Positions 28,664 to 48,151 of a stretch of 64,000 nucleotides of DNA are shown here, one piece after another (position 1 is the first letter of the stretch; every line of letters begins with the position of its first letter). Under the pieces are notes generated by a model. It searched no databases, was not told where the DNA came from, and saw only the letters and a list, made by a program, of their open reading frames with translations. Made by a program: the position numbers and the translations under genes. The DNA comes from Qingrenia yutianensis (GTDB lineage Bacteria; Bacillota; Clostridia; UMGS1810), in assembly GCF_014385105.1 (NCBI RefSeq), contig NZ_JACRTE010000003.1, positions 112,358 to 176,357 of the forward strand. Reading direction: 5' to 3'.

Positions 28664-28689
28664 AAACAAATTTTAAGGAGGAAAGAATT

Positions 28690-29568: not shown

Positions 29569-29583
29569 CGGGAGGTGCAAAAC

Positions 29584-30768
29584 GTGAAAAAACTATCGTT
29601 ATTGCTTGCAGCACTGCTGATCTTAAGCAGCACTGTTGTCAGTGCGGAATGGGAAACATTCAAATCGGCAGACGGTATGTATGAATACACAAAGGATGGA
29701 GTAATTACCGCTTATTACGGTGATGAATTTGCCTTTTTCCCGGCAGAAATAGACGGAACAATAATCAATGAAATCGGTGTTATGGCTTGTTTTGACTTAG
29801 GACTTGAAGCCATATCCGTTGCCGAAGGAATTGAATTGATAAACACAAATGCATTTGAAGGCTGCAATACCGAAAGTGCATATATTCCGTCAAGTGTGAA
29901 AAATATCGGTGAGCGCGCTTTTGCCAACTGCGCAAATCTTAATGAGGTTACATTGAATTCAGAGGAAATAACGTTTGATTTTGATGTGTTTGCCGGAACC
30001 GGATTTATACAGTTTTATATCCCGTGCACGGCAGATGAGCATGTGATGTACGAAAAAATATCCGACGCAAAGGGTGACGGGAATTTTAGTTTTTCACTTA
30101 TGCATACTGCGCTTGTTGAGAGTATGACGGAAAAGGATATTTTCGGTGAAAACATGATATACTGCGAGGACTGCGGCTTTAAAGGAAGCAAATATCTGGA
30201 GGATACCTCTCTGCCGTTTGCGGACATATCGCCGGACGCATGGTACTATTCTTATGTGCAGACGGCGTACAGCTTCGGCATCATAAACGGGAAAAACAAA
30301 AGGGAATTTGACCCGAATGCAGGGCTTACCTGCGCGGAGGCAGCCAAAATTGCCGCGGTAATTCACAATAAAAGCCAATACGAAAGAGAGGAAGTTGAAT
30401 TCCAAATGACCGGTGAAAACTGGTATGATGTTTATGTGGATTATTGCTATGACAATGCAATACTTGAAGATTATATTATCTTCGATTGGGAGGAAAACGC
30501 AACGCGTGCACAGATGGCATATCTGTTTTCGCGGTGCGACACCAATCCGTATTATATAAACGATGTTCCGATAACCGATATTCCGGACGTTTATGACACA
30601 ACGCCCTTCGCATATGAAATTTTAGACCTTTATAATAAAGGAATTGCGGTGGGAAGCGATGAATACATGGCGTTCTATCCGGATTCACATGTAAAACGCA
30701 GTGAAGCGGCGGCTCTTATTTCGAGAATTCTTTGCTACGATATGCGGATTGAATTGCCGAAAGGGTGA
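29584..30768 (+). CDS. secreted BspA-type leucine-rich-repeat protein with C-terminal SLH domains
   Basis: Signal peptide (GTG start at 29584 after GGGAGG); LRR_5-like 'INTNAFEGCNTESAYIPSSVKNIGERAFANCANLNEVTL'; SLH-like 'FADISPDAWYYSYVQTAYSFGIINGKNKREFDP'. Confidence 0.7.
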   Translation: MKKLSLLLAALLILSSTVVSAEWETFKSADGMYEYTKDGVITAYYGDEFAFFPAEIDGTIINEIGVMACFDLGLEAISVAEGIELINTNAFEGCNTESAYIPSSVKNIGERAFANCANLNEVTLNSEEITFDFDVFAGTGFIQFYIPCTADEHVMYEKISDAKGDGNFSFSLMHTALVESMTEKDIFGENMIYCEDCGFKGSKYLEDTSLPFADISPDAWYYSYVQTAYSFGIINGKNKREFDPNAGLTCAEAAKIAAVIHNKSQYEREEVEFQMTGENWYDVYVDYCYDNAILEDYIIFDWEENATRAQMAYLFSRCDTNPYYINDVPITDIPDVYDTTPFAYEILDLYNKGIAVGSDEYMAFYPDSHVKRSEAAALISRILCYDMRIELPKG

Positions 30769-30782
30769 TTAAGGTGAGGCTG

Positions 30783-31313
30783 ATGAAAGCAATTGCGATA
30801 TTTGCGGTTATTGCCGGTCTTTTCGGATGCAGGGCTCCCGGAGAAAAACCTTTTATATTGGACGGACCGGGCATGGTGTATGTTGACAGTGAGCATCGTA
30901 CAGAATACGCAAATACTCTTCCGTTCGATGAAATCGAGGACTATCCCTATTGGGCGGTCGCATATCTTGGAGAGGGAGAAACCGGCAAAAATACGGCAAA
31001 TGAATATATAGAAAAACTTTTTTCAAAGCTTTCAGAGGAAAAATGCCGGGCAATAAGTCATTATGATTACGGCGGAGAAAAATGGTATCTTGTTATTCCG
31101 CGGTACGGAGATGAGAACGAGCTGATTCAAAACGGCGACAAGAAAAATTTGCAAAAAGCAGATGACGGCACACCGTATATAATAAACTGCGGCGGCGATG
31201 TTGAAATTTATATCGTCATACGCGGCGGACACAAAATCACGCTTGATACGGATGAAAACGACAGGCTGATATGTACCCCTGATATATGGGATATAACAGA
31301 CTATAAAGAATAA
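30783..31313 (+). CDS. hypothetical lipoprotein
   Basis: 'AVIAGLFGCRAP' lipobox-like signal. Start chosen at ATG 30783; the called start 30765 overlaps the upstream stop. Confidence 0.45.
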   Translation: MKAIAIFAVIAGLFGCRAPGEKPFILDGPGMVYVDSEHRTEYANTLPFDEIEDYPYWAVAYLGEGETGKNTANEYIEKLFSKLSEEKCRAISHYDYGGEKWYLVIPRYGDENELIQNGDKKNLQKADDGTPYIINCGGDVEIYIVIRGGHKITLDTDENDRLICTPDIWDITDYKE

Positions 31314-31337
31314 AAATTTTGAGAGGAGAATATAATT

Positions 31338-32663
31338 ATGGGACTTTTAAAGGCGGGCGCAGGCGCTCTTGGCGGTGTTTTGGCTGACCAGTGGAGAGAA
31401 TTTTTCTACTGCGAAAGTTTAGATGCCGACACACTTGTGGCAAAAGGTGAAAAACGAGTGGGAAAAAGAAACTCCAACAAAAAGGGAGACGACAACATTA
31501 TTTCGAACGGTTCTGTCATTTCGGTAAACGAAGGGCAGAGCATGATTATTGTGGAATCCGGAAAGATTGTTGAATTCTGCGCAGAAGCCGGAGAATTTGT
31601 CTACGATAATTCCACAGAGCCGAGTATTTTCTGCGGCAGCTTAGGCGAAAGCATTAAGCAAAGCTTTCAGCAGGTCGGAAAGCGTTTTACTTTCGGCGGC
31701 GAACCGGGCAAGGATCAGAGGGTTTATTATTTCAACACAAAGGAAATTACCGGCAATAAATTCGGCACCTCCTCTCCCGTTCCGTTCAGGGTAACGATAG
31801 ATGAGTCCATGAACTATAAGCTGTCGGTGGATTTAAGGTGTAACGGTGTGTATTCCTATAAAATAGCCGATCCTGTTATGTTTTATACAAACGTAAGCGG
31901 TAATGTGGAATATGTATACAGCCGTTCGGAAATTGACGAAATGTTAAAGAGCGAGCTTCTGGACGCTCTGAGACCGGCATTTGCGCAAATTTCGGCAATG
32001 AAAATAATGTATTCGGAAATACCGGCACATACAAAAGAGGTTACGAAGGCGCTTGCCGAGGAACTTAAAGCCGAGTGGAAGGAAAAACGCGGAATCGAGC
32101 TTTTCGCCGTAAGCATTAACGGTGTATCCATCCCCGAGGACCAGAGAAAGAAGATTACCGAGTGGGAGGAAAACGTTATGACAACCAATCCGAATATTGC
32201 GGCGGCGCGCATTGTCGGCGGGCAGACAGACGCTATGAGAACGGCAGCGGCAAACGAAGGCGGAATGGGTGCAATGGGCGGCTTTTTCGGAATGAATATG
32301 GCGCAGAACGCAGGCGGTATGAATGCGGGCAATCTTTTTGCGATGGGTCAGCAGCAACAGCAGTCTCAGCAGCAGGCACAGCAGCCTCAAGCGGCAGGCT
32401 GGAGCTGTGAATGCGGTCAGACGGGCAATACCGGGAAATTCTGTATGAATTGCGGAAAACCGCAGGCATCGCCCGACGGCTGGACGTGTTCGTGCGGAAC
32501 GGTCAACAAGGGTAGGTTCTGCCAAAACTGCGGGAATCCGAAACCTGCGGGCGCACCGACCTATAAATGCGATAAATGCGGCTGGGAGCCTGAAGATCCC
32601 AAAAATCCGCCGAAATTCTGTCCGGAATGCGGTGACATATTTGATGATAATGATAAACAATAA
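31338..32663 (+). CDS. SPFH-domain protein of the YdjI/COG4260 type with Q/G/M-rich linker and three C-terminal zinc ribbons
   Basis: N-terminus 'GVLADQWREFF', SPFH/band-7-like core, 'MGGFFGMNMAQNAGGMNAGNLFAMGQQQQQSQQQAQQ' linker, then 'CECGQ..CMNCG', 'CSCGT..CQNCG', 'CDKCG..CPECG'. Confidence 0.7.
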   Translation: MGLLKAGAGALGGVLADQWREFFYCESLDADTLVAKGEKRVGKRNSNKKGDDNIISNGSVISVNEGQSMIIVESGKIVEFCAEAGEFVYDNSTEPSIFCGSLGESIKQSFQQVGKRFTFGGEPGKDQRVYYFNTKEITGNKFGTSSPVPFRVTIDESMNYKLSVDLRCNGVYSYKIADPVMFYTNVSGNVEYVYSRSEIDEMLKSELLDALRPAFAQISAMKIMYSEIPAHTKEVTKALAEELKAEWKEKRGIELFAVSINGVSIPEDQRKKITEWEENVMTTNPNIAAARIVGGQTDAMRTAAANEGGMGAMGGFFGMNMAQNAGGMNAGNLFAMGQQQQQSQQQAQQPQAAGWSCECGQTGNTGKFCMNCGKPQASPDGWTCSCGTVNKGRFCQNCGNPKPAGAPTYKCDKCGWEPEDPKNPPKFCPECGDIFDDNDKQ

Positions 32664-32686
32664 AATAATGGGAGGAACTTTATATT

Positions 32687-33859
32687 ATGAAAAAAATATT
32701 AGCGTTAATTTTAGCAGTAGGAATGGTATTTTCGCTCGCTGCGTGCGGCGGTGAAAAAACCGGAAAAGGCACCGAAACAAAGCAGGAAACCAAAAAGATT
32801 GACTACGCAAATATGACAGAGGACGATCTGATAAAAGAGTTTATTAAAGATGAGCAGAATATAACCTTGGATGAATTTATAGACCTTGTTTCTACATATT
32901 CATATGCAACAATCAACAATAAGCTTGAGCTTGATGAAAATATAACAGACAAAGCAATAAAAAAGCTTAAAGAAAATAAAGCAAAGCTGCCGGCGGCAAA
33001 GGAATTTGTTGAGCCTCTTTTAAAAAGTGACGCACCGCAGGTAAGAGGCTATGCTTTTTCAAACATCGCCACATTTTTCGGGGCAAGTGATTCGCATAAA
33101 GCGTCGGCAAAGGAGATTCTGAAAACCGAAAAAGAGCCTTATGTTATTAAATGTGCGGTAAAAGCTCTTGGAAATGAAGGCGGCAAGGATGCAGAAATCG
33201 GCAAATTCCTGCTTGATGCGGCAAAGAATGAAAACGCAGTTGTAAGAAGGCAGGCGGCGGTTGCTCTCGGAAGCACATGGAACAAGACTCTTAACGGAGC
33301 GGTTGATGCAGAGATTGAGCTGATGAAGGATCCGGATAAAGAGGTTCGGAAAGCAGCGTATGAGTATGCCGGTCTCCTCGGTGATGACAGGGTGGTTGCG
33401 CCTATCTCGGAAATGCTGAAAAACGAGGCTGACGCAGACCTTCATTCAAGCGGTGTAAGAGGTCTTGTTTGGCTGTGGTATGATTATCCGTCGCACGAAA
33501 ACACAAGCGAGGCGGCATACAGAGCCACGATAGACTACTTTAAAACCACACCGGGCAGCGACAAAGTTCCCGCATGGGCAGCTGTGACAAGCTTTACAAA
33601 CAAATCCGAGAAGAACTATGACGCATGGAAGGAAAAAGCAACATATTTCAATACAGATGAGCTTTATGAAGTTATGCTCGGACTTGTAAAAAACGAAAAT
33701 TTAGGACGTATGACGCGCGGATATGCCTGCAAACCCGTTGCGGTGCATTGCACAAAAGAGCAGTTTGAAGCGTTTGGCGAGGTTATAAACGCTCTTACCG
33801 ATAAGAATGCGAAATTTATACAGGACGAGTATCAAAATCAGGCAAAAAAGCTTGAATAG
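32687..33859 (+). CDS. HEAT-repeat lipoprotein
   Basis: Lipobox 'LAACGG'. Repeated 'VRxxAaxALG' HEAT-like helices (VRGYAFSNI, VRRQAAVALGS, VRKAAYEYAG). Confidence 0.55.
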   Translation: MKKILALILAVGMVFSLAACGGEKTGKGTETKQETKKIDYANMTEDDLIKEFIKDEQNITLDEFIDLVSTYSYATINNKLELDENITDKAIKKLKENKAKLPAAKEFVEPLLKSDAPQVRGYAFSNIATFFGASDSHKASAKEILKTEKEPYVIKCAVKALGNEGGKDAEIGKFLLDAAKNENAVVRRQAAVALGSTWNKTLNGAVDAEIELMKDPDKEVRKAAYEYAGLLGDDRVVAPISEMLKNEADADLHSSGVRGLVWLWYDYPSHENTSEAAYRATIDYFKTTPGSDKVPAWAAVTSFTNKSEKNYDAWKEKATYFNTDELYEVMLGLVKNENLGRMTRGYACKPVAVHCTKEQFEAFGEVINALTDKNAKFIQDEYQNQAKKLE

Positions 33860-33880
33860 CTGCAGAACGGAGGAATGACT

Positions 33881-34723
33881 ATGAAAAAAATAATCGGCGT
33901 TATACTGATTATAGGAGGCATTTTCTTTGCTTTGCTTGCTGTAAAAGCTCTTGTGTCAGCACCGCAGTCCTACGAGAAAATCAGAGCTGCGGCAACGATT
34001 AAGGACGGCAAGCTTACTCCCGAAAACGAAGGGAAGCTTGTGGTTGTCTCGGGAACGCTTAAACCTGCCGAACAGCTTCAGGATCCCATAACTGGTGTTA
34101 AGCTTCCTGGAGTAACGGCGAAAAGAACCGTTTGGACTTATGAACGGGATACCAACAGCGATGATGAACAGGTGTGGGACTGGAAGCCTGAGAATACCGA
34201 CTACAGCGAAAAGGCAAATTTCGGAATCAATGCCGAAATACTTACAACAACTATGCTTGCCGCGCCTACATTACTCGGTGAGTTTAAGGTGGAGAGCAAC
34301 CTGCTCAATCCGATTATAAGAAACACGGAATTTAAGCAATATGACGAGAAGAGCCTCAATGCGGGCTGGAAGGTGCTTTCGGGCGGAAGAGAAAGCAGCT
34401 ACTGCGTTTCAAAAGAAAATTGGCTGCCGAAAAAATCAACAGGTACATACTCAACGACGGGATATGGAGCTCAAAAAATATCCTACGGTATTGTTTCGCC
34501 CGACGATCCGCTCGAATATACGGTTATCGGCGTACAAAAAGGCGATACCCTGATAAAGAGCGAAGATGTAGATTCTGTTACAACCGTTAAGGGAATTATG
34601 ACGGCGGAAGAATTTGCCGAGGAGAACAAAAAAGGTGTGCGCGGCGGCTCGATTTTCGGTATCGTGGCAGGAATATTGCTTGCAATAATCGGTGTTGGAA
34701 TGATGGCATTCCGGAGGCAGTGA
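33881..34723 (+). CDS. hypothetical membrane protein with N- and C-terminal TM helices flanking a ~220-aa extracytoplasmic domain
   Basis: TM 'IIGVILIIGGIFFALLAV' and TM 'IFGIVAGILLAIIGVGMMAF'. ATG 33881 has GGAGG 7 nt upstream. Confidence 0.5.
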   Translation: MKKIIGVILIIGGIFFALLAVKALVSAPQSYEKIRAAATIKDGKLTPENEGKLVVVSGTLKPAEQLQDPITGVKLPGVTAKRTVWTYERDTNSDDEQVWDWKPENTDYSEKANFGINAEILTTTMLAAPTLLGEFKVESNLLNPIIRNTEFKQYDEKSLNAGWKVLSGGRESSYCVSKENWLPKKSTGTYSTTGYGAQKISYGIVSPDDPLEYTVIGVQKGDTLIKSEDVDSVTTVKGIMTAEEFAEENKKGVRGGSIFGIVAGILLAIIGVGMMAFRRQ

Positions 34724-34725
34724 AA

Positions 34726-35301
34726 ATGAAGACGAATACAAAATTATTCTCCGGAGGCGGAACCTATATTTCAAAAGTGGCAATTGCAAGGCTTACATTA
34801 AAAAAACACATACAAATGATTATAGGCGGATTCTTCACAGCGGTTTTTCTGTTCGGAATTATTTCGGGGGTTACGGGGTATAACGAAGAACTTCGTGATA
34901 ACTTGATTACCAATATAGTCATGCTTGTTCCGTCCGCACTCCTTTTGTTAAACGGCATTAAAAACGGCACAATGGCGGCGCGTGCATATCGCTACAACTC
35001 AATCTTTATGTGCGATATTGACGGCACGGTGACAATTGACGAGCTTGCAAAGCAATCCGGAAAACCGCCGTTCAGGGTGCTTTCCGAGCTTGATAAGCTT
35101 TTTGATAAAGGAGTGTTCTGTGACTGCACTCTGCAAAAGCAGGGATTGCCCTGCGTGATTCTTTCGGGCAGAGAAAACAGTAAAACAAGCTTTGTTAACG
35201 TTGTATGCGAAAAATGCAACGGAACAACAAGGATCCGCGCCGGAAGCTCCGGTAAATGTGAGTATTGCGGAAATGCAATCTCAAGCCGCAATATCGGATA
35301 A
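34726..35301 (+). CDS. membrane protein with C-terminal zinc ribbon
   Basis: Two TM helices, then 'CEKCNG...CEYCGN'. The called start 34720 overlaps the upstream stop by 4 nt. Confidence 0.5.
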   Translation: MKTNTKLFSGGGTYISKVAIARLTLKKHIQMIIGGFFTAVFLFGIISGVTGYNEELRDNLITNIVMLVPSALLLLNGIKNGTMAARAYRYNSIFMCDIDGTVTIDELAKQSGKPPFRVLSELDKLFDKGVFCDCTLQKQGLPCVILSGRENSKTSFVNVVCEKCNGTTRIRAGSSGKCEYCGNAISSRNIG

Positions 35302-35469
35302 ATGCAAAATCCAAAAGAAAGGAGATGCTAAGTTATATCGAAAGATATTAACGCAGACACAGAAATCTGAAGTTCGGATTATACTGTTATGTAATCCGAT
35401 ACATTCCGGCAAATTTTGCAGAGGAATGTAAAATATCACATCAAAAGAATGAAAGGAGGAAACAGCAAA

Positions 35470-38400
35470 ATGAAACGATTGCGAAAAAAACTGGTGACAG
35501 CACGAATTTTGGCATTTGTTACGGCGGTTGCAATGCTTTCGGGTATTGGAATAGCTGCTTCTGAGGGAAATAGCGCTGATTCCATTGATGCGTCTGAGAA
35601 CACTGTTATAAGCGAAACGGCACAAGCGCCGGAATCGCCGACTGCGGCGGAACCGCCTGAACTGCCGACTGCGGCGGAACCGCCTGAACAAACGGCAGAA
35701 GCGGAAACAACAGAAGCGCCTGAGGTGCCGACGGAGTCTGATGTTCCGGAATTTCCGAAAGTGTCTGACATGCCCGAAGCAATGGAGATGCCGGAATTTC
35801 CGGAAGAAGATGAAACGCCGGATGTGTCGGGAAATATTGTTGAATTTGGCTCACTCAACCAAGAAGAAGCGCAGACGCCGATGATGGCGTCGATGGGGGC
35901 AAATTCGGGTGACATGGCTCTTGCAGCGGACGATTATTCTCAGTGGATTAACATCGGAAACCACAAAGCACCCGACGGCACCAATTACAAAGCAGACTCA
36001 AAATTTTGGTATGAGGGCATGGTGCTGTGTTTGGAAAGTGAAAGCGCCGATGCAAAAATCCGGTTGCAGAGCGACATTTCTGTGGAAGAAAATTTCTTTG
36101 AAAACGAAAAAAATAATTGGATAGTCGATGTTAATGTCAAGCGTAACAAGGTTATTGACTTAAACGGCAAAACTATTTATATTAAGCCCTATCAATATGA
36201 TAAGGATAACACTTTTTTCTACGGCAAGAATTTTTCCACCGGTATTGCAAAGCATTATACCATGTTCAATATCGGAAACGGTTCCAAGCTCACCATTGTG
36301 GACAGCAAGGGCGGCGGCAAAATCAGGTGCGACAGTTGGCTGCTTTCCGAAAAAGATATGGACGATGCGGAAACAAGCTGTGTGGATATGTTCAATGTTT
36401 CGTCCGGCGGCGAGCTGTTTATCAACGCCTCCGGTGCAGAGTTTGTTTGCGGCCGCTCGAAAAAGCAGTATCTTTACGCTGCTTCCTGCAACGGTCCCGA
36501 TAATGAATATTGCTATGACGGTTATGCCCGGGGTCAGGTTAACGGCTCTGTGGTCGTAGCAGGCGAAAACAGTAAGGTAACCGTGGTTGGCGGCTCTCTT
36601 TTGGCGAGGGGCTACAGCCTGACACCGAGTACCGGCTGGAAGCCGAGCGGCGGCGCAGAAAGTGTGAAAAAATGTGCCGTTTTCCAGGTGGCAAAGGGTG
36701 CGGAAATCAACATTACGGACGGATATTTTAAAGGCTGCGGCGGCGCTGATGTGTTCCAATATTGGTATAGTGACAAGGACAAAATCAGCGTGAATATCAA
36801 AGCGGGCACATTTGACACCCACAAGGTTGATAAAGTGGTTATCCAAGGTCATCTCTCATCCACCACTGATATACCCAACGCATTCAAGGGGTTATCAAGA
36901 GATAACTATATGCCCGGCAGATATGGTGATGTGAACATCCTGAAGGAATGGGTGAATATGGATGAGGCCGACCTTATCTATGGCGGCGAGGAGCTCACCG
37001 AGGAGGACGGAGACGCAACCGGCAGCAAAAAAACCGTTATAAAACCCAAAACCCAGAGCAAATATTTCAACAGTGATTCGCGGGTTGAAATCGAAAACCA
37101 CACCTCCGACGGTTCTAAGGAGTATAACCCCAACGAAAATATACCGTATTATGTCAGTGCCAAGTATACTCCATATTACTCTTTGAAAGAGGAGGAATGG
37201 CTGGCTTATGACTATCAGAACAGAACCGATCGCACTATCAAGTGGTATTACACTCTTTATAAGAGCCTGGGCGACTCTCCGCTTTCTGCAGAGCTGGAAT
37301 CCACTGCTCCAATCTGTAATCTGAATGATTTGCGAACTAATAAAGGCGACAAAATCACCTATCAGAACGGGCAGATGTATCAGCTCAAAATGCGGGTGGA
37401 GGAAAAATGGGTCGGACACAACACCTACACCAGGTCCTTCGCCGGTACGTATATGTTTTATGTTTCCGACGCACCGGTAGGCGAGGTCACGAAATTTATG
37501 AATTTTGAGGTGAAAACCACAGTCACGGGAACGGGAGAACCGCAGAACTTTGAGTCTTTTCCCGACGCCGCAACAATAAGCAAGCTTCAAGAAATGGGCA
37601 TCAAGGATGACACAGAAAGCAGTTATGATTATCGGTATTATTACCTTGATGAATTCGGTAAAACCGTGTACACCAAGTGGATTGACTACGGCAGCGGAAA
37701 ACCGCCGGAAGCCCGTTGGGCATTTGCGCCGCTTAAGCCCGGTCCCATAGATTTGCGCCTGGGTCTTTTGATTCCCGGCAACGGCGGAGAAGGCAGCTAC
37801 ACGAAGATATATAAAACCGTATTCGCTATGCCTTCTATCAGTGTTTGGCGCGAAGGTTCGGGAGATACAGAATTTGTGACTCCCGACCGCAACGACGTTG
37901 TTTATGCAATAACGGGCATGAACGTCACCTTAAATCCCGGGTTAGAGTTTTTAAATGAGCTTGACTTAAAAGACCCGCAAACAGGGAAAAAGCTAACCGT
38001 TGCCGATGTGGAATGGGAGTTTCGTGAATTGAGCGGGACGGGATATGTGCCTCTTGACGTCGACGTGGATAATAACGGCTGCTGCTCCGTTGATCGCAGC
38101 GGCACCTATCGTGCAAAATTCACCTACGATGGCAGAACATGGTATAGTCCAAACCCGATTTTGCTCTCGGGCAAGAACTATGATAACAACAGAATGCCCT
38201 ATATCACCGGCAAAAACAGTCACACATCCTGGTCAGACCCGCATGTGCTGCAAATTAACCTGAATAAGGATGCCAACTGGTATACCGTAACGGAATATTG
38301 GCTGAAAGCGAAAAGTCATCCATATGGCGCCAGCATCGGCAGCAGCCAAAAAAAGTGTGACAGCAACGGCAGTTTGGATATCAAAAAGTTCTTCAGCGGA

Positions 38401-41130
38401 ACAACGACCGCGGATAACTTTAAGCCCGGCGACTATACCTTTGAGGCATTTGTTTATGGAATAGACGGAGACGGACACAACTATCGGATGAAATCCGAGC
38501 CATTCACTGTTCGGTTTGAGAAAGAGTCCACCGACACCGCAATTCGCATAAACGGCGAAACCGTATACGATCCGGCAAAGGCTAACTCTTTTTGTATTCC
38601 ATACACCGTGCCGGCAGGAGTGAGCAATTTGGACTTTGAACAGATTACGTGGCCTGCCGACGCAACTATTGATGTGAACAGAAATAACCGATTTGAGTGG
38701 TATTCAAAGGATCCGGACATTATTCAGATCGACAGCAAAACCGGAAAAGCCGAGGTTTTGCGCCCGGGAACAACTGAGGTTGGTTTTCATATTTATGAGC
38801 CGGACGGCATTGTTTTGGGTGGCACGCAGCTTCGGATTGATGTGCCGATTGCCGGTTTTGAAATAGAGCCAATAGACTACGCCGCTCATATTGGAGAGTC
38901 TTACATAAACCTGAAACCGAAGGTTAAGGCGGTTTGGGCTGCCAGCGGTTTGCGAATCACCGAAAATACGGATCAATATTTGGATTTCGACATCAGAAGC
39001 TGGTCCACCAGCGCTATGTCCGGTGCGGATATCAACAAAATTCAGTATAACGATTATCTGAGGTTTAATTATCGGGTGTTCACCAAGAACGGCTATTTCT
39101 TACCGTTGCAAAGAGACAGTGAATATGGCGGCTATGTTTACTACTGCGTGAACGCAGATGCCTTGGAAATTAAAGGCTTTACGGGTGATGACAAGGTATA
39201 CAAGGCAAAAGAGATTGGTGCATATGCCGCCTATCAGGGGGGCAGCGAGAATTATTGGGCGCGAACGTTTTGTTATAAGGAAACCGGCGTTTATGCCTTT
39301 GAAGAGGGCGATCCCGCTATTTCAAAGCTGTGCATCCCGACAACCGTATTTGTCAAAGATCCCAATACCACATATCTGGAAACAGTGAATATCACAACTC
39401 GTGAGCCGGTTAAAAACGATTATCGCTATGAGGGCGATGACTGGAAAAATGGATACTACACCACCTATCTAAACGGAAACATAAGCTCTCTCAGGGGGGT
39501 TACCGATGTAAACGGTGAAGAGCTCTGGGGATATTCAAGCAGGGTTTCTAAGCTCACGGAGCCGCCCAAAGGCAGCGGCAATCCCTATGAAGATGCAAAA
39601 GGCGAGAGTTCTCTGGAATGGTGGAACGGCGTGATAGAGCCGGTTTATGATGATAAACAAAAGCCCACTGCACGCTATACCGACGGCACTTATTTCAACG
39701 ATGTTACTATGGAGCTTGCGTGGAAGGATACTGCAGCCGGGCAGAAGTTCGCCGTTGACCCCAACGCCACCATTTATGTGAACGGTCATGCTATGAACAA
39801 CGTCACTATCTACTATGATTTTCAGTTTGACGAAAGTTTGCACACGGCTATTTATTTCAAGTATTATTTTGACGTGGGAAGCACTGAGTCATACACCTCT
39901 GCCACTGTGAAGGGAATCTGCGATCCCCGAATCGGCGAAATGCCCACTCTTGTGGAGGAAACTTATGTGGAAGAGTCAGAAGAACTGTATGTTTCCAAGC
40001 TTATCTGGTTTGTGGATAAAAACGGCAACCAAAAATATGATTCCGGTGAGGAGTGCCGCATTCGATACGACAGTGAGGGAAATTATGATTCTGCCAACAG
40101 CGATTTGACTGCAAACGGCACCTTCCGTGCAGACAGAAAATACAGCGTGTTTGTGGAGGTATCCTCCGAAGGAGGACGCATTGCAAACGGCGGTATATTC
40201 CAGCTGTATATGACTTTGGATAACGGTGCGAACGCTTTGCTCTCCGTTGACAACTCCACCGGCGGTGCATACCACTATAATAAAAGCACAAACTTAGTCG
40301 GACGTTTTGACGCAACATTTATAAAGGACGACCCGATGGCATTTTATCGGTTCAACGAGTATCCCGGTTATGACGCAGACGGTTTCGCGTCTTCATCATA
40401 CTGGGTTAAGGATGTGGAGACGGGGGAAAGTATGTTTGGTAAATCGCTGTTGCCCGGAAAGAAATATGAGTTTGATGTGATTTATGTTTCCTCCGATTCA
40501 TGCCGGTTTGCAGATGACTTCACAGTTACTGTGGATGGCGCTCAGCTCACCGACGGTGTGACCTTAGAGGCGGACAGAACTCGTGTTAGAATTCAGTATT
40601 CCTTCACTCTGAATTCCAATGGAACGAAGGTTATCGGAAAGACGGTAAGTTATAACCCAAATAATCCGCCGATTGTTGAATTAAGACAGAATGGAGTCAA
40701 AATTTATGATGCGGTTCTTGACGGCGGCAAGGCGGTCGGTGATAAAATAACGCACGAATTCACCTTTGACACGGTAAATGCCGGCAAATATGACCTTGTT
40801 GTCATAAAAAGCGGACATTTGTTATACACTGTAAGAGGTATAGAGGTGAGCAACAGTGACATAGACCTAAAGACTCACGCAAACGAAAAAATCAGCACAA
40901 TCACGCTGTTGGCGGGTGATGTGAACGGCGATGGAAAAATAAACAATCTCGACTATGCTGTTGTGCTGAATCCCTTAAACTTTAATAAGGGATATAATTC
41001 TCCGAGTGATGTGAAAGATATATCGGCAGATATTAACGGAGATAAAAAAATTAACAATTTGGATTATGCTATTATTCTTAATCCGATACATTTTAATAAG
41101 TCTTGTGATGTGTGTACATTAACGTACTAA
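35470..41130 (+). CDS. giant (≈1886 aa) secreted protein with N-terminal Pro/Glu-rich linker and C-terminal dockerin-like tandem Ca-binding repeats
   Basis: AAGGAGGA ribosome-binding site 8 nt before ATG 35470. Signal peptide 'LVTARILAFVTAVAMLSGIGIAAS'. PE-rich region. C-terminus 'GDVNGDGKINNLDYAVVLNP...ADINGDKKINNLDYAIILNP' matches the dockerin duplicated EF-hand-like segment. Confidence 0.75.
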   Translation: MKRLRKKLVTARILAFVTAVAMLSGIGIAASEGNSADSIDASENTVISETAQAPESPTAAEPPELPTAAEPPEQTAEAETTEAPEVPTESDVPEFPKVSDMPEAMEMPEFPEEDETPDVSGNIVEFGSLNQEEAQTPMMASMGANSGDMALAADDYSQWINIGNHKAPDGTNYKADSKFWYEGMVLCLESESADAKIRLQSDISVEENFFENEKNNWIVDVNVKRNKVIDLNGKTIYIKPYQYDKDNTFFYGKNFSTGIAKHYTMFNIGNGSKLTIVDSKGGGKIRCDSWLLSEKDMDDAETSCVDMFNVSSGGELFINASGAEFVCGRSKKQYLYAASCNGPDNEYCYDGYARGQVNGSVVVAGENSKVTVVGGSLLARGYSLTPSTGWKPSGGAESVKKCAVFQVAKGAEINITDGYFKGCGGADVFQYWYSDKDKISVNIKAGTFDTHKVDKVVIQGHLSSTTDIPNAFKGLSRDNYMPGRYGDVNILKEWVNMDEADLIYGGEELTEEDGDATGSKKTVIKPKTQSKYFNSDSRVEIENHTSDGSKEYNPNENIPYYVSAKYTPYYSLKEEEWLAYDYQNRTDRTIKWYYTLYKSLGDSPLSAELESTAPICNLNDLRTNKGDKITYQNGQMYQLKMRVEEKWVGHNTYTRSFAGTYMFYVSDAPVGEVTKFMNFEVKTTVTGTGEPQNFESFPDAATISKLQEMGIKDDTESSYDYRYYYLDEFGKTVYTKWIDYGSGKPPEARWAFAPLKPGPIDLRLGLLIPGNGGEGSYTKIYKTVFAMPSISVWREGSGDTEFVTPDRNDVVYAITGMNVTLNPGLEFLNELDLKDPQTGKKLTVADVEWEFRELSGTGYVPLDVDVDNNGCCSVDRSGTYRAKFTYDGRTWYSPNPILLSGKNYDNNRMPYITGKNSHTSWSDPHVLQINLNKDANWYTVTEYWLKAKSHPYGASIGSSQKKCDSNGSLDIKKFFSGTTTADNFKPGDYTFEAFVYGIDGDGHNYRMKSEPFTVRFEKESTDTAIRINGETVYDPAKANSFCIPYTVPAGVSNLDFEQITWPADATIDVNRNNRFEWYSKDPDIIQIDSKTGKAEVLRPGTTEVGFHIYEPDGIVLGGTQLRIDVPIAGFEIEPIDYAAHIGESYINLKPKVKAVWAASGLRITENTDQYLDFDIRSWSTSAMSGADINKIQYNDYLRFNYRVFTKNGYFLPLQRDSEYGGYVYYCVNADALEIKGFTGDDKVYKAKEIGAYAAYQGGSENYWARTFCYKETGVYAFEEGDPAISKLCIPTTVFVKDPNTTYLETVNITTREPVKNDYRYEGDDWKNGYYTTYLNGNISSLRGVTDVNGEELWGYSSRVSKLTEPPKGSGNPYEDAKGESSLEWWNGVIEPVYDDKQKPTARYTDGTYFNDVTMELAWKDTAAGQKFAVDPNATIYVNGHAMNNVTIYYDFQFDESLHTAIYFKYYFDVGSTESYTSATVKGICDPRIGEMPTLVEETYVEESEELYVSKLIWFVDKNGNQKYDSGEECRIRYDSEGNYDSANSDLTANGTFRADRKYSVFVEVSSEGGRIANGGIFQLYMTLDNGANALLSVDNSTGGAYHYNKSTNLVGRFDATFIKDDPMAFYRFNEYPGYDADGFASSSYWVKDVETGESMFGKSLLPGKKYEFDVIYVSSDSCRFADDFTVTVDGAQLTDGVTLEADRTRVRIQYSFTLNSNGTKVIGKTVSYNPNNPPIVELRQNGVKIYDAVLDGGKAVGDKITHEFTFDTVNAGKYDLVVIKSGHLLYTVRGIEVSNSDIDLKTHANEKISTITLLAGDVNGDGKINNLDYAVVLNPLNFNKGYNSPSDVKDISADINGDKKINNLDYAIILNPIHFNKSCDVCTLTY
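35636..35689 (+). repeat. 27-nt tandem direct repeat (x2) encoding PTAAEPPEL/PTAAEPPEQ
   Basis: ccgactgcggcggaaccgcctgaac occurs twice back to back inside the linker-coding region. Confidence 0.6.
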
Positions 41131-41144
41131 AAAGGAGGATGAAT

Positions 41145-44100
41145 ATGAAAACATCAAAACAATTAATTTCAGTTTTATTGACATTGGTCATGGTTCTCGG
41201 CATGATTTCCTCGGCGGCATTTGCTGCCGGCGGAGATTATTCAACCAGAATGGTTGTGGAAAAGGTTTCTAATTCCAATATAGATATTAAATGGATGGCA
41301 CAAACCAAAAACGGAGCCGTTATGAAAACTGTTTCTGCCATCATATTTAAGTATGACAATACGAAATATGATATGCTGACAAATGACGGTGAGGTTATAA
41401 CAACAAAAACCATGAGCGACAATCTATTTGGCGAATATACAGATGCATCTTATGCTCAAAGGGTAGCTGTGATAGATTCTCCCGGTCTTTGGAACAACAG
41501 CGGAATCTATACGGAAGCAAAAGGGAATTGGACATTTGTTCTTATCAATCTTTTATCGGGCAGTTCAATGGCAAAAAAAGAATACACAACGGAAACCGCT
41601 CTCGCAGTTGTTCACTTGAAGCTTAAGAGCGGTTCGGTTGATAGCGGAATTTCACAAGACAGTATTGCATTGGCAACGGCAGCCGAAGCAGATGGCTGTG
41701 CTCAGTCGGGTATAGTTGTATTTATAGGTGCAGACAATAAGCCCCTTATCTACGGGAAGACTGATGGCACACCGGACACACTTTCTATAACACCCTCAAT
41801 TGATGCGGGAACCGGCATAACCTTTATTGCTCCTCCCAAACCTTCTCCAACTATCACAACAGCTCCAACAGCAACCGTAACTTATGGCGACACAGTAAGC
41901 GACAGTGCGTTAACGGGCGGAGTGGCTTCCGTTGCAGGAACATTCAAATGGGCAGATGGTGTAACAACCTACGGCAACGCAGGCACAAAAACGCTTAAAG
42001 CAAAGTTTGTTCCCACAGATACGGCAAATTATGCAACGGTTGAAGATATTGATGTTAATGTTAAGGTAAACAAGGCGTCGGCGCCTGCTGCTCCCACAGG
42101 TTTAAAGGGTATAAAAGGACAGACTTTGTCCACAGTTTCCCTCCCGGGCGGCTGGACTTGGGCTGACGGCACGACAGTTATGAACACTGCCGGAACGCAG
42201 ACCTTTAAGGCAAATTACACAGATACAACCGGTAATTATGAAAATGCGACAAATGTTGATGTTTCGGTCAATGTAACTGCAAAATCGACCGCAGCTTTGA
42301 CGGGGCTTACGCAAAGCGGCTGCACCTACGGTGAAACGCTTTCTGCACCGAGCTACACAAAGCCCGCCGGCACGATTGATTCCACAATAAAAGTTACCTA
42401 TATGGGCAAAGGCGGCACAACCTATGCGGAATCCGCAGCAAAACCCGTAAAATCAGGGACTTACACCGTAAAGTTAACGCTTGAAACGGCGGATACAATT
42501 TACAGCGGAACTGCGGACTTCACAATCGCACAAAAAGATGTTACCATACGCGGCTTTAAGGTGCCGAACAGCGCTTATAACGGCGATACGAAAACATCTT
42601 TTAATGCAGCCGCCGCAGAAATCGTCGGCAAGATAACGGGCGATGATGTAACCGTTGACACCACCGCCGCAGAGGCAAACTTTGCACAAAAGGATGTCGG
42701 CAATGATATTTCCGTTAATTTCACAGGCGTGAAGCTTGCAGGCGCAGATAAGGACAATTACAGAATTAACAGCGTTGAGCCTGCAAAGGCAAACATCTAT
42801 CAAAGAACTCTTACGGTTAAACCGGACAGCGGCTTGAGCAAAAAATACGGCGAGGCAGACCCCGCATTGAGCAGCACTGTAAGCGGAACTATTTACGGTG
42901 AGATGTACATAATTGACGGCAAGCTGGAAAGAGAAGCAGGCGAAAATGTCGGCAATTATAAAATTCTCCTCGGCACGCTGGCTCTTAAAGACAACGGAGC
43001 CTTCAAAGCATCAAACTATATACTGAGCCTTGATACGACCGCAGTATACTTTGAGATCAAAAAAGCTCCTGCTCCGTCCGCTCCCACAGGGTTAAGCGGT
43101 ATGAAGGGTAAAACGCTTGCAACCGTTCCTCTTACAGGCGGCTGGGCTTGGGCTGACGGCACGACAGTTATGAACACTGCCGGAACGCAGTCCTTTAAGG
43201 CAAATTACACAGATACAACAGGCAATTATGAAAATGCGACAAATGTTGATGTAACAGTAGAAGTTATTGATAAAACGAATGTCAGCGCAAGCATCACCTT
43301 CGCTGACGGCGAGCTGACATATAACGGCGCAGGGCAGGCTTATGAAACCGCAAGCATTTCCGGCATTACGGCAGGCGCTAACCCCGGCTGGACTTATGTT
43401 TACGCACCCTCCGGCACAGGCTCGCTCGATGCTTCGGGCAAGCCGCAGAACGCAGGCACATACACCGTAACGGCAACCTATGAGGATGATGACAATTACG
43501 GTACAAAGAGCGCCGTGCTTAAAATCAAAAAGGCTGTTCCGACGGGAACTCCGAAGTATACGGAAATAACTTCTTCGGACAAAACTCTTGCAGACGCAGC
43601 TATAACGACAACAGGCGCAGACTTCACTGCTTTGGGTACAGTTATCTGGGTGGCTGACGACGGCGTAACACCGCTTCCGGACACAACTGTGGTTGCGGCA
43701 AACACCTATTACAAATGGCTGTTCACACCGACCGACACAAACAATTACGAAACACTGACAGGAACAATTCGCCTTTATTACAAATCATCGGGCGGAGGCG
43801 GCGGACGAAGCACTTCACGCTACACCGTATCGTTTGAATCGAACGGCGGCAGCAAGGTTTCAAATCAGACCGTTACAAGAAACAGCGTTATGAAAGAGCC
43901 GACAGCGCCGACAAAAGAAAACTTTGATTTTGACGGTTGGTACTCGGATAAGAAACTCAAAACCAAGTACGATTTTTCCGCAAAGGTAACAAAGAGCTTC
44001 ACACTCTATGCAAAATGGACGGAAAAGGATAATTCGGTAAATCAGATTATCTTAACAATCGGCAAAAAGGACACACAGGTATTCGGCAAGGCGAAATCAA

Positions 44101-44453
44101 ATGATGTTGCTCCGAAAATCGTAAACAACCGTACAATGCTTCCGGCAAGGTTTGTTGCCGAAAACCTCGGTGCTGATGTTTCGTGGGACGGCGATAAAGA
44201 ACTTGTGACGATTAAAGGGAAAAATCTTAAAACAGGTGAGGATGTAACTATACTTATTACCATCGGCGCTGCAACAGCAAAGGTAAACGGCAAGGAAATC
44301 AAGCTTGATTCTGCCGCATTTGTTGAGAATGACCGCACCTACACACCAATTCGCTTTATATCCGAGGAACTCGGCGCAAGTGTTGAATGGGTTGAAAAGG
44401 ATAAGAAGGTAATTATCACAAAGCCCGAAATCAAAAAGGCTGAAACAAAGTAA
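41145..44453 (+). CDS. cell-surface protein with MBG-like domains, a Listeria-Bacteroides repeat and two C-terminal copper-amine-oxidase-N-like stalk domains
   Basis: Signal peptide 'LISVLLTLVMVLGMISSAAFA'. 'NYRINSVEPAKANI', 'GNYKILLGTLAL...ASNYILS' MBG-type blocks. 'YTVSFESNGGSKVSNQTV...FDFDGWYSDKKL...FTLYAKW' Listeria-Bacteroides repeat. 'RTMLPARFVAENLGADVSW' and 'RTYTPIRFISEELGASVEW'. Confidence 0.7.
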   Translation: MKTSKQLISVLLTLVMVLGMISSAAFAAGGDYSTRMVVEKVSNSNIDIKWMAQTKNGAVMKTVSAIIFKYDNTKYDMLTNDGEVITTKTMSDNLFGEYTDASYAQRVAVIDSPGLWNNSGIYTEAKGNWTFVLINLLSGSSMAKKEYTTETALAVVHLKLKSGSVDSGISQDSIALATAAEADGCAQSGIVVFIGADNKPLIYGKTDGTPDTLSITPSIDAGTGITFIAPPKPSPTITTAPTATVTYGDTVSDSALTGGVASVAGTFKWADGVTTYGNAGTKTLKAKFVPTDTANYATVEDIDVNVKVNKASAPAAPTGLKGIKGQTLSTVSLPGGWTWADGTTVMNTAGTQTFKANYTDTTGNYENATNVDVSVNVTAKSTAALTGLTQSGCTYGETLSAPSYTKPAGTIDSTIKVTYMGKGGTTYAESAAKPVKSGTYTVKLTLETADTIYSGTADFTIAQKDVTIRGFKVPNSAYNGDTKTSFNAAAAEIVGKITGDDVTVDTTAAEANFAQKDVGNDISVNFTGVKLAGADKDNYRINSVEPAKANIYQRTLTVKPDSGLSKKYGEADPALSSTVSGTIYGEMYIIDGKLEREAGENVGNYKILLGTLALKDNGAFKASNYILSLDTTAVYFEIKKAPAPSAPTGLSGMKGKTLATVPLTGGWAWADGTTVMNTAGTQSFKANYTDTTGNYENATNVDVTVEVIDKTNVSASITFADGELTYNGAGQAYETASISGITAGANPGWTYVYAPSGTGSLDASGKPQNAGTYTVTATYEDDDNYGTKSAVLKIKKAVPTGTPKYTEITSSDKTLADAAITTTGADFTALGTVIWVADDGVTPLPDTTVVAANTYYKWLFTPTDTNNYETLTGTIRLYYKSSGGGGGRSTSRYTVSFESNGGSKVSNQTVTRNSVMKEPTAPTKENFDFDGWYSDKKLKTKYDFSAKVTKSFTLYAKWTEKDNSVNQIILTIGKKDTQVFGKAKSNDVAPKIVNNRTMLPARFVAENLGADVSWDGDKELVTIKGKNLKTGEDVTILITIGAATAKVNGKEIKLDSAAFVENDRTYTPIRFISEELGASVEWVEKDKKVIITKPEIKKAETK
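42064..42290 (+). repeat. intragenic repeat copy 1 (~230 nt; shared near-identical core of ~90 nt)
   Basis: Encodes 'KASAPAAPTGLKGIKGQTLSTVSLPGGWTWADGTTVMNTAGTQTFKANYTDTTGNYENATNVDVSV'. The core 'tgggctgacggcacgacagttatgaacactgccggaacgcag...cctttaaggcaaattacacagatacaac' is identical in copy 2. Confidence 0.7.
43066..43272 (+). repeat. intragenic repeat copy 2 (~1.0 kb downstream of copy 1)
   Basis: Encodes 'KAPAPSAPTGLSGMKGKTLATVPLTGGWAWADGTTVMNTAGTQSFKANYTDTTGNYENATNVDVTV'. Confidence 0.7.
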
Positions 44454-44498: not shown

Positions 44499-44548
44499 GG
44501 CCGCCCGGTATAGAGGCAAAACGCCTTTATTGCCGGGCGGCTTTTTTG
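44499..44548 (+). terminator. Rho-independent terminator closing the long plus-strand gene block
   Basis: ggccgcccgg ... ccgggcggc stem with a structured loop, followed by tttttt at 44542–44547. Confidence 0.6.
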
Positions 44549-45238
44549 TGCCTTTTTATATGATATTACAAAGCAAAGGAAGCGAAAGCGATTACCTCAT
44601 AAATAAAAAATTGCCCTGCATAGGACAAAATTATGCTTTTTGTCGGATATGCCCTGCGGCACGGAGGACACTTTATGAAGCCAGTGCAAAGCTCAAAAAG
44701 CATAAGCCTAAAGGACATCACCGCAAATCTTCGGGAAAACATCACAGAAAACCACCACCGTATCATAGCCGTGCTCCGCCTCTCTCTTTTGTGCAAATTC
44801 AACAAAATTTACACAAAAGGGTGAAATTATGAAATTATTTTTTGAAAGTTACAATGGGCTTGTGACATTAGGTACTACAATGAATTTCGGAAGGAGGTGT
44901 AACGGCTGTGACGGGTACGGCTATTTAATAGCATAATCAAAGGGATTGATATAATTCGATAACCTTGTTATCTGTATATCAGTCCTTTTGCTTATATTAT
45001 TAAGTTTTAGGGGGTGCCTTATGATAGAAAAAAATGATTTTATAACAATTAAAGAATCTAAATTGGGAAAGGAATCATCTTTTACAAAAATAAAGGTCAA
45101 GGGCGGTTGTGTAATAAATGTGAAAAGCAAATTTAATAATACAGTAGATTTGATTGAAGCACTAAAACAGGGAGTTTTTTTATCAATACAATCTGAACAG
45201 TAATTTTTTGCGTTAATCGCTACAATAATGTATAATAG

Positions 45239-47241: not shown

Positions 47242-47375
47242 ATAAAGAACCTCCGATTTCGGTAAAATTTCACTAAATTATATTTTACCAAATTTTCAAA
47301 AAAATTTCAAGCGTTATTAAACAAAACAAAACCGAGATGCGCGCGCAATCTCGGTTTTATGCGGTAATTTCAAAA

Positions 47376-48068
<693 letters not shown>

Positions 48069-48151
48069 CTACATATTACTACAAAAGTCTACATGCTTTT
48101 CAAAAAATAGTTATTTTGCACAATAATTGAATGTATATTTGTAAAATTTAT

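What the first reader, a model, noticed from the sequence alone, without database searches (positions are those of the whole stretch)
35470..41130. 1.9-kDa-scale secreted giant protein with a dockerin-like C-terminus but no cohesin in the window, in an SLH/CsaB S-layer organism
The C-terminal 70 aa read 'GDVNGDGKINNLDYAVVLNP…ADINGDKKINNLDYAIILNP'. This is the duplicated 12-residue Ca-binding loop plus helix layout of type-I dockerins, with divergent helix residues. The upstream 1800 aa have no obvious catalytic motif.

The protein is encoded immediately after the ydjGHI-like block and before a 1113-aa MBG-repeat surface protein. The 19-nt overlap at 41112–41130 suggests co-transcription.

A dockerin implies a cohesin-bearing partner; the SLH domains elsewhere in the window (8495.., 29584.., 61766..) would fit an anchoring scaffoldin. 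It is a non-enzymatic giant cargo on a cohesin–dockerin system in a sporulating organism.
Basis: partly seen in the sequence, partly recalled or inferred. Interest (0 to 1): 0.6.

Follow-up and report, generated by a model that had tools for sequence, protein, structure and literature searches.

The report
Giant surface fibril with dockerin anchor
This gene encodes a 210-kDa secreted protein of a spore-forming Clostridia-type bacterium that appears built like a surface adhesin: a beta-helix head, a long rod of Ig-like domains and a genuine dockerin as its tail anchor. It is a new member of known kinds of surface protein, and the partner that holds the dockerin was not found.

Summary
The ORF (35470-41130, + strand, 1886 aa, 210 kDa, not "1.9 kDa") is real. 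It has a strong RBS and a signal peptide. Its C-terminus is a genuine dockerin (Pfam PF00404, 40.7 bits against a cutoff of 22.9).

The head defines a family of at least 322 clusters of large secreted proteins. Their C-termini carry a dockerin (51/125), SLH repeats (18) or a TM/sortase-like tail (18), never dockerin with SLH. The dockerin therefore sits in an anchor position. Its two repeats co-evolve within each protein (63% against 22% identity, p=2e-15), which implies a specific partner.

No cohesin was detected in about 84 kb around the gene, and none of the SLH proteins carries one. The "19-nt overlap" is a longest-ORF artefact: the neighbour starts at 41145, 14 nt downstream.

Verdict: an adhesin-like fibril anchored by a dockerin, a new member of known kinds. 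An enzymatic head is not excluded.

The parts
35451..35459 (+). Ribosome-binding site GAAAGGAGG, 10 nt before the ATG at 35470
   Evidence: Read directly from the sequence
35470..41130 (+). Whole gene: 1886-aa, 210-kDa secreted protein (stop codon 41128-41130)
   Evidence: The identical product is called on 20 metagenome contigs
35470..35568 (+). Sec-type signal peptide (aa 1 to about 33: basic N-region, hydrophobic core, AAS)
   Evidence: Translation. The cleavage site is inferred, not predicted by a tool
35575..35916 (+). Pro/Glu-rich low-complexity linker (aa 36-149), present only in this protein and its 97% relative P0001
   Evidence: Alignment, composition, low-complexity hit to the IgA-binding BAC linker
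35917..37149 (+). N-terminal head: right-handed parallel beta-helix (aa 150-560). Conserved motifs are DLNG, VDS, GRSKxQ, GYARGQ, GRG, DGxFxGxGGAD and KVDK
37150..40569 (+). Stalk: about 1140 aa, all-beta, roughly ten Ig-like beta-sandwich domains (sub-threshold Big_2 / NUP210-Ig hit at aa 1064-1108)
   Evidence: AF2 model of aa 687-1886 with mean pLDDT 57.5, all-beta. Foldseek top hits are tandem Ig arrays and S-layer proteins. Low confidence
40570..40905 (+). Ig-like module directly before the dockerin (aa 1701-1812), a diverged X-module-like domain (NAGKYDLVVIKSGHLLYTV)
   Evidence: The family profile aligns across the X-module of the A. cellulolyticus ScaA XDoc 4u3s_B, E 8.4e-12. The window alone is only weak: 2b59_B E 0.036, fn3_3 E 0.0011
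40912..41082 (+). Dockerin (aa 1815-1871). Ca loop 1 is at 40918-40953 (DVNGDGKINNLD) and Ca loop 2 at 41029-41064 (DINGDKKINNLD). Each loop is followed by a helix YA[VI][VI]LNP
   Evidence: Pfam PF00404 at 40.7 bits against 22.9, PDB dockerins, repeat symmetry
41083..41127 (+). C-terminal tail HFNKSCDVCTLTY with a CxxC pair; function unknown
   Evidence: Translation. Present only in the window protein and P0001
41132..41138 (+). RBS (AAGGAGG) of the downstream gene, inside the 14-nt intergenic gap
41145..44453 (+). Downstream gene, probably co-transcribed: 1102-aa secreted YDG/MBG/Flg_new/Cu_amine_oxidN1 surface protein. This pairing is not conserved next to homologs
44522..44549 (+). Terminator-like hairpin plus T-run after the downstream gene. 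There is none between the two genes
   Evidence: Consensus scan only

Best explanation
The gene encodes a fibrillar, adhesin-like cell-surface protein. It is exported by the Sec pathway. At its N-terminal end, after a Pro/Glu-rich spacer, it carries a right-handed beta-helix head that most likely binds a glycan or another surface ligand. A rod of about 1150 residues, made of roughly ten Ig-like beta-sandwich domains, holds that head away from the cell. The C-terminal Ig-like module plus dockerin (an XDoc-like pair) attaches the protein non-covalently, in a calcium-dependent way, to a cohesin-type receptor on the cell surface that is encoded elsewhere in the genome.

Shown here: the ORF, the signal peptide, the dockerin, the beta-helix fold of the head, the all-beta nature of the stalk, the alternative anchors used across the family, and the co-evolution of the two dockerin repeats.

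Inferred: ligand binding by the head, attachment to the cell surface, and the existence and cohesin nature of the partner.
For: - Dockerin: PF00404 at 40.7 bits against a cutoff of 22.9; solved type I dockerins at E 1.8e-6.
- Head family: confident members (P0076, E 1e-24 to the head profile) match PF20585 'putative pectate lyase-like adhesive domain' at 31.9 bits against 24.3. Others touch PF14262 Cthe_2159, a carbohydrate-binding beta-helix. Such beta-solenoid heads have been described as candidate adhesive domains of fibrillar adhesins (PMC9210967).
- Head conservation: positions conserved across 138 heads are mostly Gly, Leu and Asn, which are structural residues.
- Stalk: all-beta, and its best matches are tandem Ig arrays and S-layer proteins.
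- Anchor position: among 125 large family members the C-terminus carries a dockerin in 51, SLH in 18 and a TM or sortase-like tail in 18, never dockerin with SLH. 50 of 65 dockerin domains end within 30 aa of the C-terminus.
- Specific partner: the two repeats are 63% identical at variable positions within a protein and 22% between proteins (p=1.9e-15). The window's repeats differ at synonymous sites (53/72 nt).
- Cassette divergence: against the 72% ortholog the head is 86% and the stalk 74% identical, but the Ig module is 33% and the dockerin 25%, as expected for a cassette matched to a species-specific receptor.
- Precedent: R. flavefaciens CttA is a non-catalytic binding protein tied to the cell wall by XMod-Doc:CohE (PMC4266597).
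Against: - No cohesin was found in the window or in 10 kb on either side (about 84 kb in all), and none in the SLH proteins.
- No other gene with the same dockerin signature was found, but both searches were uninformative.
- The window's own head has no direct Pfam hit, so its link to the adhesive-domain family is transitive.
- Foldseek gave no significant PDB match for the head. Its best E was 0.37, although the top hits are again beta-helices.
- The stalk model has low confidence (mean pLDDT 57.5).
- Several polar residues are well conserved in the head (D278 94%, R380 88%, K227 86%, R329 78%). They could form an active site.
- No ligand is known.
Confidence: 0.5

Rival explanations
1. The protein is a dockerin-borne enzyme. 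Its beta-helix head is a polysaccharide lyase or depolymerase, so the protein is catalytic cargo of a cellulosome-like complex and not an adhesin.
Confidence: 0.2
2. The dockerin is an orphan. The genome has no cohesin, and the dockerin-like module either binds a different receptor (S-layer protein, SLH protein, cell-wall polymer or another cell) or serves only as a calcium-stabilised terminal domain.
For: No cohesin was found in about 84 kb around the gene or near the homologs examined in E. ramulus and an Oscillospiraceae MAG. The helices are atypical, with a proline replacing the usual aromatic residue (YAVVLNP; alignment). Dockerin-like modules without a recognisable cohesin are reported in many non-cellulolytic organisms (own knowledge of the literature, not verified here).
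Against: Cohesin and dockerin genes are usually not linked, so absence from 84 kb of a genome of unknown size says little. The symmetric, species-specific helices kept under purifying selection argue for a specific protein partner of the dual-binding type known for cohesins.
Confidence: 0.2
3. One reading: one of the SLH proteins in the window (8495, 29575 or 61766) is the anchoring scaffoldin that receives this dockerin, and the gene forms a functional unit with the MBG protein and the ydjGHI-like block.
For: Three SLH proteins and a CsaB-type pyruvyl transferase are present, so SLH-based anchoring exists in this organism. The giant gene and its neighbour are 14 nt apart with no terminator between them.
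Against: The SLH proteins carry GH18, LRR_5 or a helical region and show no cohesin at E<=5. In relatives the neighbours are a two-component system and Big_2 proteins, not MBG or ydjGHI. The claimed overlap does not exist.
Confidence: 0.04

Closest known systems
Ruminococcus flavefaciens CttA (XMod-Doc bound to the ScaE cohesin)
   Same: A non-catalytic, secreted binding protein with its ligand-binding modules at the N-terminus and an Ig-like X-module plus dockerin at the C-terminus. That pair ties it to a cell-wall-anchored cohesin (PMC4266597). The layout is the same: head, spacer, X-like Ig, dockerin.
   Different: CttA has two CBM-like cellulose-binding modules, not a beta-helix head, and a much shorter spacer. 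Its cohesin partner is known and encoded in the same sca cluster. Here no partner was found, and the window's own X-like module is only weakly similar to solved X-modules.
Acetivibrio cellulolyticus ScaA XDoc (4u3s, 4wi0) and DocCel5 type I dockerin (5nrk)
   Same: These are the best sequence matches. DocCel5 aligns with the window's dockerin (E 1.8e-6), including a Lys at loop position 6 and the I-N-x-L-D-[FY]-A motif. The family profile aligns along the whole ScaA X-module plus dockerin (E 8.4e-12).
   Different: Those are components of a cellulose-degrading cellulosome. This organism shows no cellulosomal enzymes or scaffoldin in the region examined. The helices here contain a proline (LNP) in place of the usual aromatic residue.
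Fibrillar adhesins with beta-solenoid heads (L. reuteri SRRP binding region 5nxk/5ny0; Pfam PF20585; Monzon & Bateman 2022 clusters 1 and 12)
   Different: SRRP and most described fibrillar adhesins are anchored by LPXTG/sortase, and SRRP has serine-rich repeats in place of Ig domains. The paper's text does not mention dockerin or SLH. The window's head is below the detection limit of the Pfam models.
Non-catalytic dockerin proteins of R. flavefaciens FD-1 (unknown-domain, LRR and transglutaminase-like groups)
   Same: These are large sets of signal-peptide proteins with a C-terminal dockerin and no CAZyme module. Some were proposed to structure the cell surface rather than act in the cellulosome (PMC2930009). 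The E. ramulus homolog lies next to a transglutaminase-core plus dockerin protein.
   Different: R. flavefaciens has a documented repertoire of cohesins. For this organism none is known.

Membership tests
Dockerin type I (Pfam PF00404) | Profile match above the curated gathering score | tested here: met
   40.7 bits in the whole protein and 48.7 bits for the tail alone, against a cutoff of 22.9. The EF-hand models score well below their cutoffs.
Dockerin type I (Pfam PF00404) | Two tandem segments, each a 12-residue EF-hand-like Ca loop (D1, N/D3, D/N5, D12) followed by a helix | tested here: met
   DVNGDGKINNLD and DINGDKKINNLD lie 37 residues apart, each followed by YA[VI][VI]LNP. They align to solved dockerins.
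Dockerin type I (Pfam PF00404) | Internal symmetry of the recognition helices (basis of the dual binding mode) | tested here: met
   The window's repeats share 17 of 24 residues. Family-wide, identity is 0.63 within a protein and 0.22 between proteins, p=1.9e-15.
Dockerin type I (Pfam PF00404) | Ca-dependent binding to a cognate cohesin | not testable with these tools
   This needs the complete genome and a binding experiment.
Cohesin-dockerin (cellulosome-like) system | A cohesin-bearing scaffoldin or anchoring protein encoded in the same genome | tested here: not met
   Tested only for about 84 kb. There is no PF00963 in any ORF of 90 aa or more in the window, nor in 10 kb on either side, nor in the SLH proteins at E<=5. 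The rest of the genome could not be searched.
Cohesin-dockerin (cellulosome-like) system | Several dockerin-bearing proteins in the organism that share the dockerin type | tested here: inconclusive
   The protein search with the dockerin alone failed for technical reasons. The DNA signature scan of JGI metagenomes found nothing, not even this gene.
X-module-dockerin (XDoc) dyad | An Ig-like X-module directly upstream of the dockerin, homologous to solved X-modules | tested here: inconclusive
   The family profile aligns across the ScaA X-module (4u3s_B, E 8.4e-12). The window protein alone gives only E 0.036 to CipA XDoc 2b59_B, and its module is 33% identical to that of its closest ortholog.
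Fibrillar adhesins (adhesive head, stalk of repeated domains, surface anchor) | A recognised adhesive domain at the distal end | tested here: inconclusive
   The beta-helix fold is supported. PF20585 is matched by family members (31.9 bits against 24.3) but not by the window's head itself.
Fibrillar adhesins (adhesive head, stalk of repeated domains, surface anchor) | A stalk of tandem Ig-like or other repeat domains | tested here: inconclusive
   The model is all-beta with tandem-Ig Foldseek hits, but mean pLDDT is 57.5. Big_2 and NUP210-Ig hits are below threshold.
Fibrillar adhesins (adhesive head, stalk of repeated domains, surface anchor) | A cell-surface anchor at the other end | tested here: met
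   The C-terminal dockerin occupies the same position as the SLH repeats or TM/sortase-like tails of other family members. Actual anchoring is inferred.
Beta-helix polysaccharide lyases and hydrolases (PL1/3/6/9, GH28) | Right-handed parallel beta-helix fold | tested here: met
Beta-helix polysaccharide lyases and hydrolases (PL1/3/6/9, GH28) | Sequence-profile membership or the family-specific catalytic motifs | tested here: not met
   No lyase, GH28 or Beta_helix Pfam or NCBIfam hit for the protein or its head at E<=5.

The most novel reading that the evidence does not exclude
The beta-helix head defines an unnamed family of giant surface fibrils (at least 322 clusters at 50% identity) in Clostridia, including human-gut species. 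The same head-and-stalk design is plugged into whichever anchor the host uses: dockerin, SLH, or a sortase/TM tail. On this reading the many dockerin-bearing members would reveal a widespread cohesin-dockerin system, or a new non-cohesin dockerin receptor on the S-layer, used for surface display of adhesins in non-cellulolytic commensals rather than for polysaccharide degradation.
Probability: 0.25. Interest if true: 0.5.

Novelty: new member of a known kind. Interest (0 to 1): 0.3.

Why it matters
If the reading is right, this is an example of cohesin-dockerin chemistry being used to display a 210-kDa adhesin-like fibril on a spore-forming bacterium found in gut-type metagenomes, rather than to assemble enzymes. 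That bears on how such bacteria attach to mucus, dietary particles or other cells. The protein also offers a defined pair of targets, a beta-helix head and a species-specific dockerin, for finding both the ligand and the receptor. None of the parts is new in kind, however. Non-catalytic dockerin proteins, XDoc anchoring and beta-solenoid-headed fibrillar adhesins are all documented, so the finding is mainly of annotation value unless the partner turns out not to be a cohesin.

Tried and rejected
- A protein search with the 79-aa dockerin alone returned nothing, because the query was too short for the word index.
- A degenerate DNA scan for the dockerin signature N-N-L-D-Y-A-[VI]-[VI]-L-N-P in JGI metagenomes gave 0 hits, not even this gene, so it was uninformative.
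- A second metagenome scan with the head profile gave only 8 loci, mostly E. ramulus-like, too few for a neighbourhood analysis.
- A profile re-search of the word-indexed protein database found the same 7 full-length homologs.
- The afdb50 fold library was not available.
- Walking the metagenome scaffolds 10 kb left and right of the window found housekeeping genes on the left and four Pfam-less large proteins on the right, with no cohesin. Further walking was judged too unlikely to pay off.
- The exact SLH protein at 61766 is not on record in the contig index.
- SLH proteins as scaffoldins: rejected, because they have no cohesin signal.
- Functional linkage to the ydjGHI-like block or the MBG neighbour: rejected, because it is not conserved next to homologs.
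- Generic EF-hand sites: rejected, because the dockerin model passes threshold while the EF-hand models do not.
- The organism could not be named.
- My greedy ORF list for the cohesin scan contained at least one shadow ORF (47337-48110, + strand, over a UPRTase gene on the - strand). Gene-caller Pfam tables for overlapping contigs also show no cohesin.
Full report
**The observation.** The window holds a 5.7-kb ORF on the + strand that ends at 41130. The longest reading starts at a TTG at 35416. Gene callers on 20 independent metagenome contigs call exactly this 1886-aa product. The protein weighs 210.3 kDa and is acidic (pI 4.7), so the '1.9-kDa' of the title is a slip for about 1.9 thousand residues. 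The quoted C-terminal sequence is correct.

**The dockerin.**
- Pfam's Dockerin_1 model matches aa 1815-1871 at 40.7 bits (gathering score 22.9, E 2.8e-10), and at 48.7 bits when the tail is scanned alone. The EF-hand models stay far below their cutoffs.
- Against solved structures the tail aligns best with the type I dockerin DocCel5 of Acetivibrio cellulolyticus (5nrk_B, E 1.8e-6) and then with other cellulosomal dockerins.
- Both 12-residue loops (DVNGDGKINNLD, DINGDKKINNLD) have the calcium ligands at positions 1, 3, 5 and 12.
The dockerin is real.

**Is the dockerin functional?** The two repeats share 17 of 24 residues but only 53 of 72 nucleotides, with synonymous differences in several conserved codons. 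The similarity is therefore kept by selection on the protein and not by recent gene conversion. I located both repeats in 29 non-redundant family members. At the variable positions, the two repeats of one protein are on average 63% identical, against 22% between different proteins (Mann-Whitney p=1.9e-15). Helices that are species-specific yet internally symmetric are what is expected of dockerins that recognise a particular partner in a dual binding mode. This argues against a merely structural calcium site.

**The cohesin.**
- I scanned every ORF of 90 aa or more in the window against Pfam, and none matches Cohesin PF00963.
They show no cohesin signal even at E<=5 or against the PDB.
- Metagenome contigs extend the view by 10 kb on each side. 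The left side is housekeeping. The right side holds the SLH protein followed by four large proteins with no Pfam match except a Cu_amine_oxidN1 domain.
- So about 84 kb is free of detectable cohesin. Cohesin and dockerin genes are generally unlinked, so this says little about the rest of the genome, which I could not search.

**The body: the head family.** A profile of this head finds 322 cluster representatives (E<=1e-3; 212 at <=1e-10) among 1.84 billion. Nearly all have the module right after the signal peptide of a protein of 900-2000 aa. The window's head has no direct Pfam hit. Confident family members, however, match PF20585, 'putative pectate lyase-like adhesive domain' (P0076, 31.9 bits against 24.3), and weakly match PF14262 (Cthe_2159). 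Monzon and Bateman described exactly such beta-solenoid heads, most similar to SRRP and distantly related to Cthe_2159, as candidate adhesive domains of fibrillar adhesins (PMC9210967). Positions conserved across 138 heads are mostly Gly, Leu and Asn, but also D278, R380, K227 and R329. A catalytic site therefore cannot be excluded.

**The body: the stalk.** The model of aa 687-1886 is of low confidence (mean pLDDT 57.5). It is almost entirely beta-strand up to the helical dockerin. Its best Foldseek matches are tandem Ig-like arrays: NUP210, the GhpA grappling hook, the S-layer proteins EA1, SbsB and Sap, and Sidekick. This agrees with sub-threshold Big_2 and NUP210-Ig hits at aa 1064-1108. 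I read the region 561-1700 as a rod of roughly ten beta-sandwich domains, which is an inference from a weak model.

**The anchoring cassette.** The family profile aligns not only with dockerins but across the whole X-module plus dockerin of A. cellulolyticus ScaA (4u3s_B, E 8.4e-12; 'AGTYTLKVMKKNHVTREY' against 'AGTYTVKITKANYLTREI'). The window's own module before the dockerin (NAGKYDLVVIKSGHLLYTV) is a diverged copy and on its own reaches only E 0.036 to CipA XDoc. Against the closest ortholog outside the species (P0002), the head is 86% and the stalk 74% identical, but this Ig module is 33% and the dockerin 25% identical. The last roughly 185 residues thus behave as a separately evolving, exchangeable cassette.

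**What the family says about function.** Among 125 family members of 800 aa or more, a locally built dockerin HMM finds a dockerin in 51. SLH repeats occur in 18, and a C-terminal hydrophobic tail in 18, of which 7 have a sortase-like xPxTG motif. Dockerin and SLH never occur together, and 50 of 65 dockerin domains end within 30 residues of the C-terminus. An independent Pfam scan of 36 members gave 12 with a dockerin and 7 with SLH. The dockerin therefore occupies the slot that other members fill with established cell-surface anchors, with the beta-helix at the opposite, distal end. This is the layout of a fibrillar adhesin. It also matches R. flavefaciens CttA, a non-catalytic binding protein fixed to the wall through XMod-Doc:CohE (PMC4266597). 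Non-catalytic dockerin proteins with unknown, LRR or transglutaminase-like modules are abundant in R. flavefaciens and have been suggested to structure the cell surface (PMC2930009). In E. ramulus, a 1566-aa transglutaminase-core plus dockerin protein lies two genes from the homolog.

**Context.** The downstream gene does not overlap. Its real start is ATG 41145, behind AAGGAGG (41132-41138), 14 nt after the stop, and it gives a 1102-aa secreted protein. No terminator-like hairpin lies between the genes, and one follows the second gene at 44522-44539. Next to the homologs in the Oscillospiraceae MAG and E. ramulus, the neighbours are a 7TM histidine kinase, a LuxR-type response regulator and Big_2 proteins. 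They are not the MBG protein or the ydjGHI-like block, so those adjacencies are not evidence of shared function.

**Verdict.** This is a real and probably functional dockerin on a giant non-CAZyme protein, most likely an adhesin-like surface fibril anchored through an XDoc-like cassette. The proposed SLH scaffoldins are not supported, and the partner remains unknown. Each component belongs to a known kind, so I rate it a new member of known kinds with modest interest. The main open point, and the only route to something more novel, is what the dockerin binds.

Noticed in passing
window 26796-35301 (+ strand): A same-strand array of nine genes lies upstream: zinc-ribbon protein, TPM-domain protein, DUF4428, LRR_5+SLH protein, an unknown, Band_7_1/SPFH, HEAT-repeat protein, TMEM43-like, and another unknown. 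The zinc-ribbon, TPM and Band_7_1 trio resembles B. subtilis ydjG/H/I (own knowledge) but is interrupted by other genes. The array is conserved on the metagenome contigs. On one contig (L010) the HEAT gene is split into 113-aa and 178-aa pieces.
   Followed up: partly
window 25593-26771 (+): A second beta-helix surface protein: Cu_amine_oxidN1 domain plus Beta_helix/NosD (392 aa). The Cu_amine_oxidN1 domain recurs in the 1102-aa neighbour and in a 1387-aa protein just beyond the window, so it may be this organism's common wall-associated module.
   Followed up: no
window 50607-52928 (+): A fusion of a GT4 glycosyltransferase with a polysaccharide pyruvyl transferase (CsaB-like) in one 773-aa protein, consistent with SLH-dependent anchoring to a pyruvylated wall polymer.
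   Followed up: no
L024 12643-20855 (just beyond the right end of the window): Directly after the SLH protein at 61766 come proteins of 952, 422, 389 and 1387 aa. They have no Pfam match at E<=5, except a Cu_amine_oxidN1 domain in the last. This looks like an uncharacterised surface-protein cluster.
   Followed up: partly
L002 18109-22809 (Eubacterium ramulus ATCC 29099): Two genes downstream of the E. ramulus homolog lies a 1566-aa protein with a transglutaminase core and a C-terminal dockerin. Upstream of the homolog is a 7TM histidine kinase plus a LuxR-type response regulator, and the same upstream arrangement occurs in the Oscillospiraceae MAG L001. This may be a regulated cluster of dockerin-bearing surface proteins.
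   Followed up: partly
window 35575-35916 and 41083-41127: Two features are found only in this protein and its 97% relative: a 114-aa Pro/Glu-rich spacer between the signal peptide and the head, and a C-terminal tail with a CxxC pair (SCDVCTLTY) after the dockerin.
   Followed up: no
window 47337-48110: The longest ORF here (+ strand, 257 aa, no Pfam hit) is probably a shadow of a 208-aa uracil phosphoribosyltransferase gene on the - strand, which gene callers find on the matching metagenome contigs.
   Followed up: partly
family members P0030, P0037, P0064, P0088, P0098, P0099, P0107: Several relatives end in motifs such as PRTGT, ANTGD, PKTGD or PGTGD, followed by a hydrophobic stretch and a basic tail. 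These look like non-canonical sortase sorting signals rather than LPXTG.
   Followed up: no
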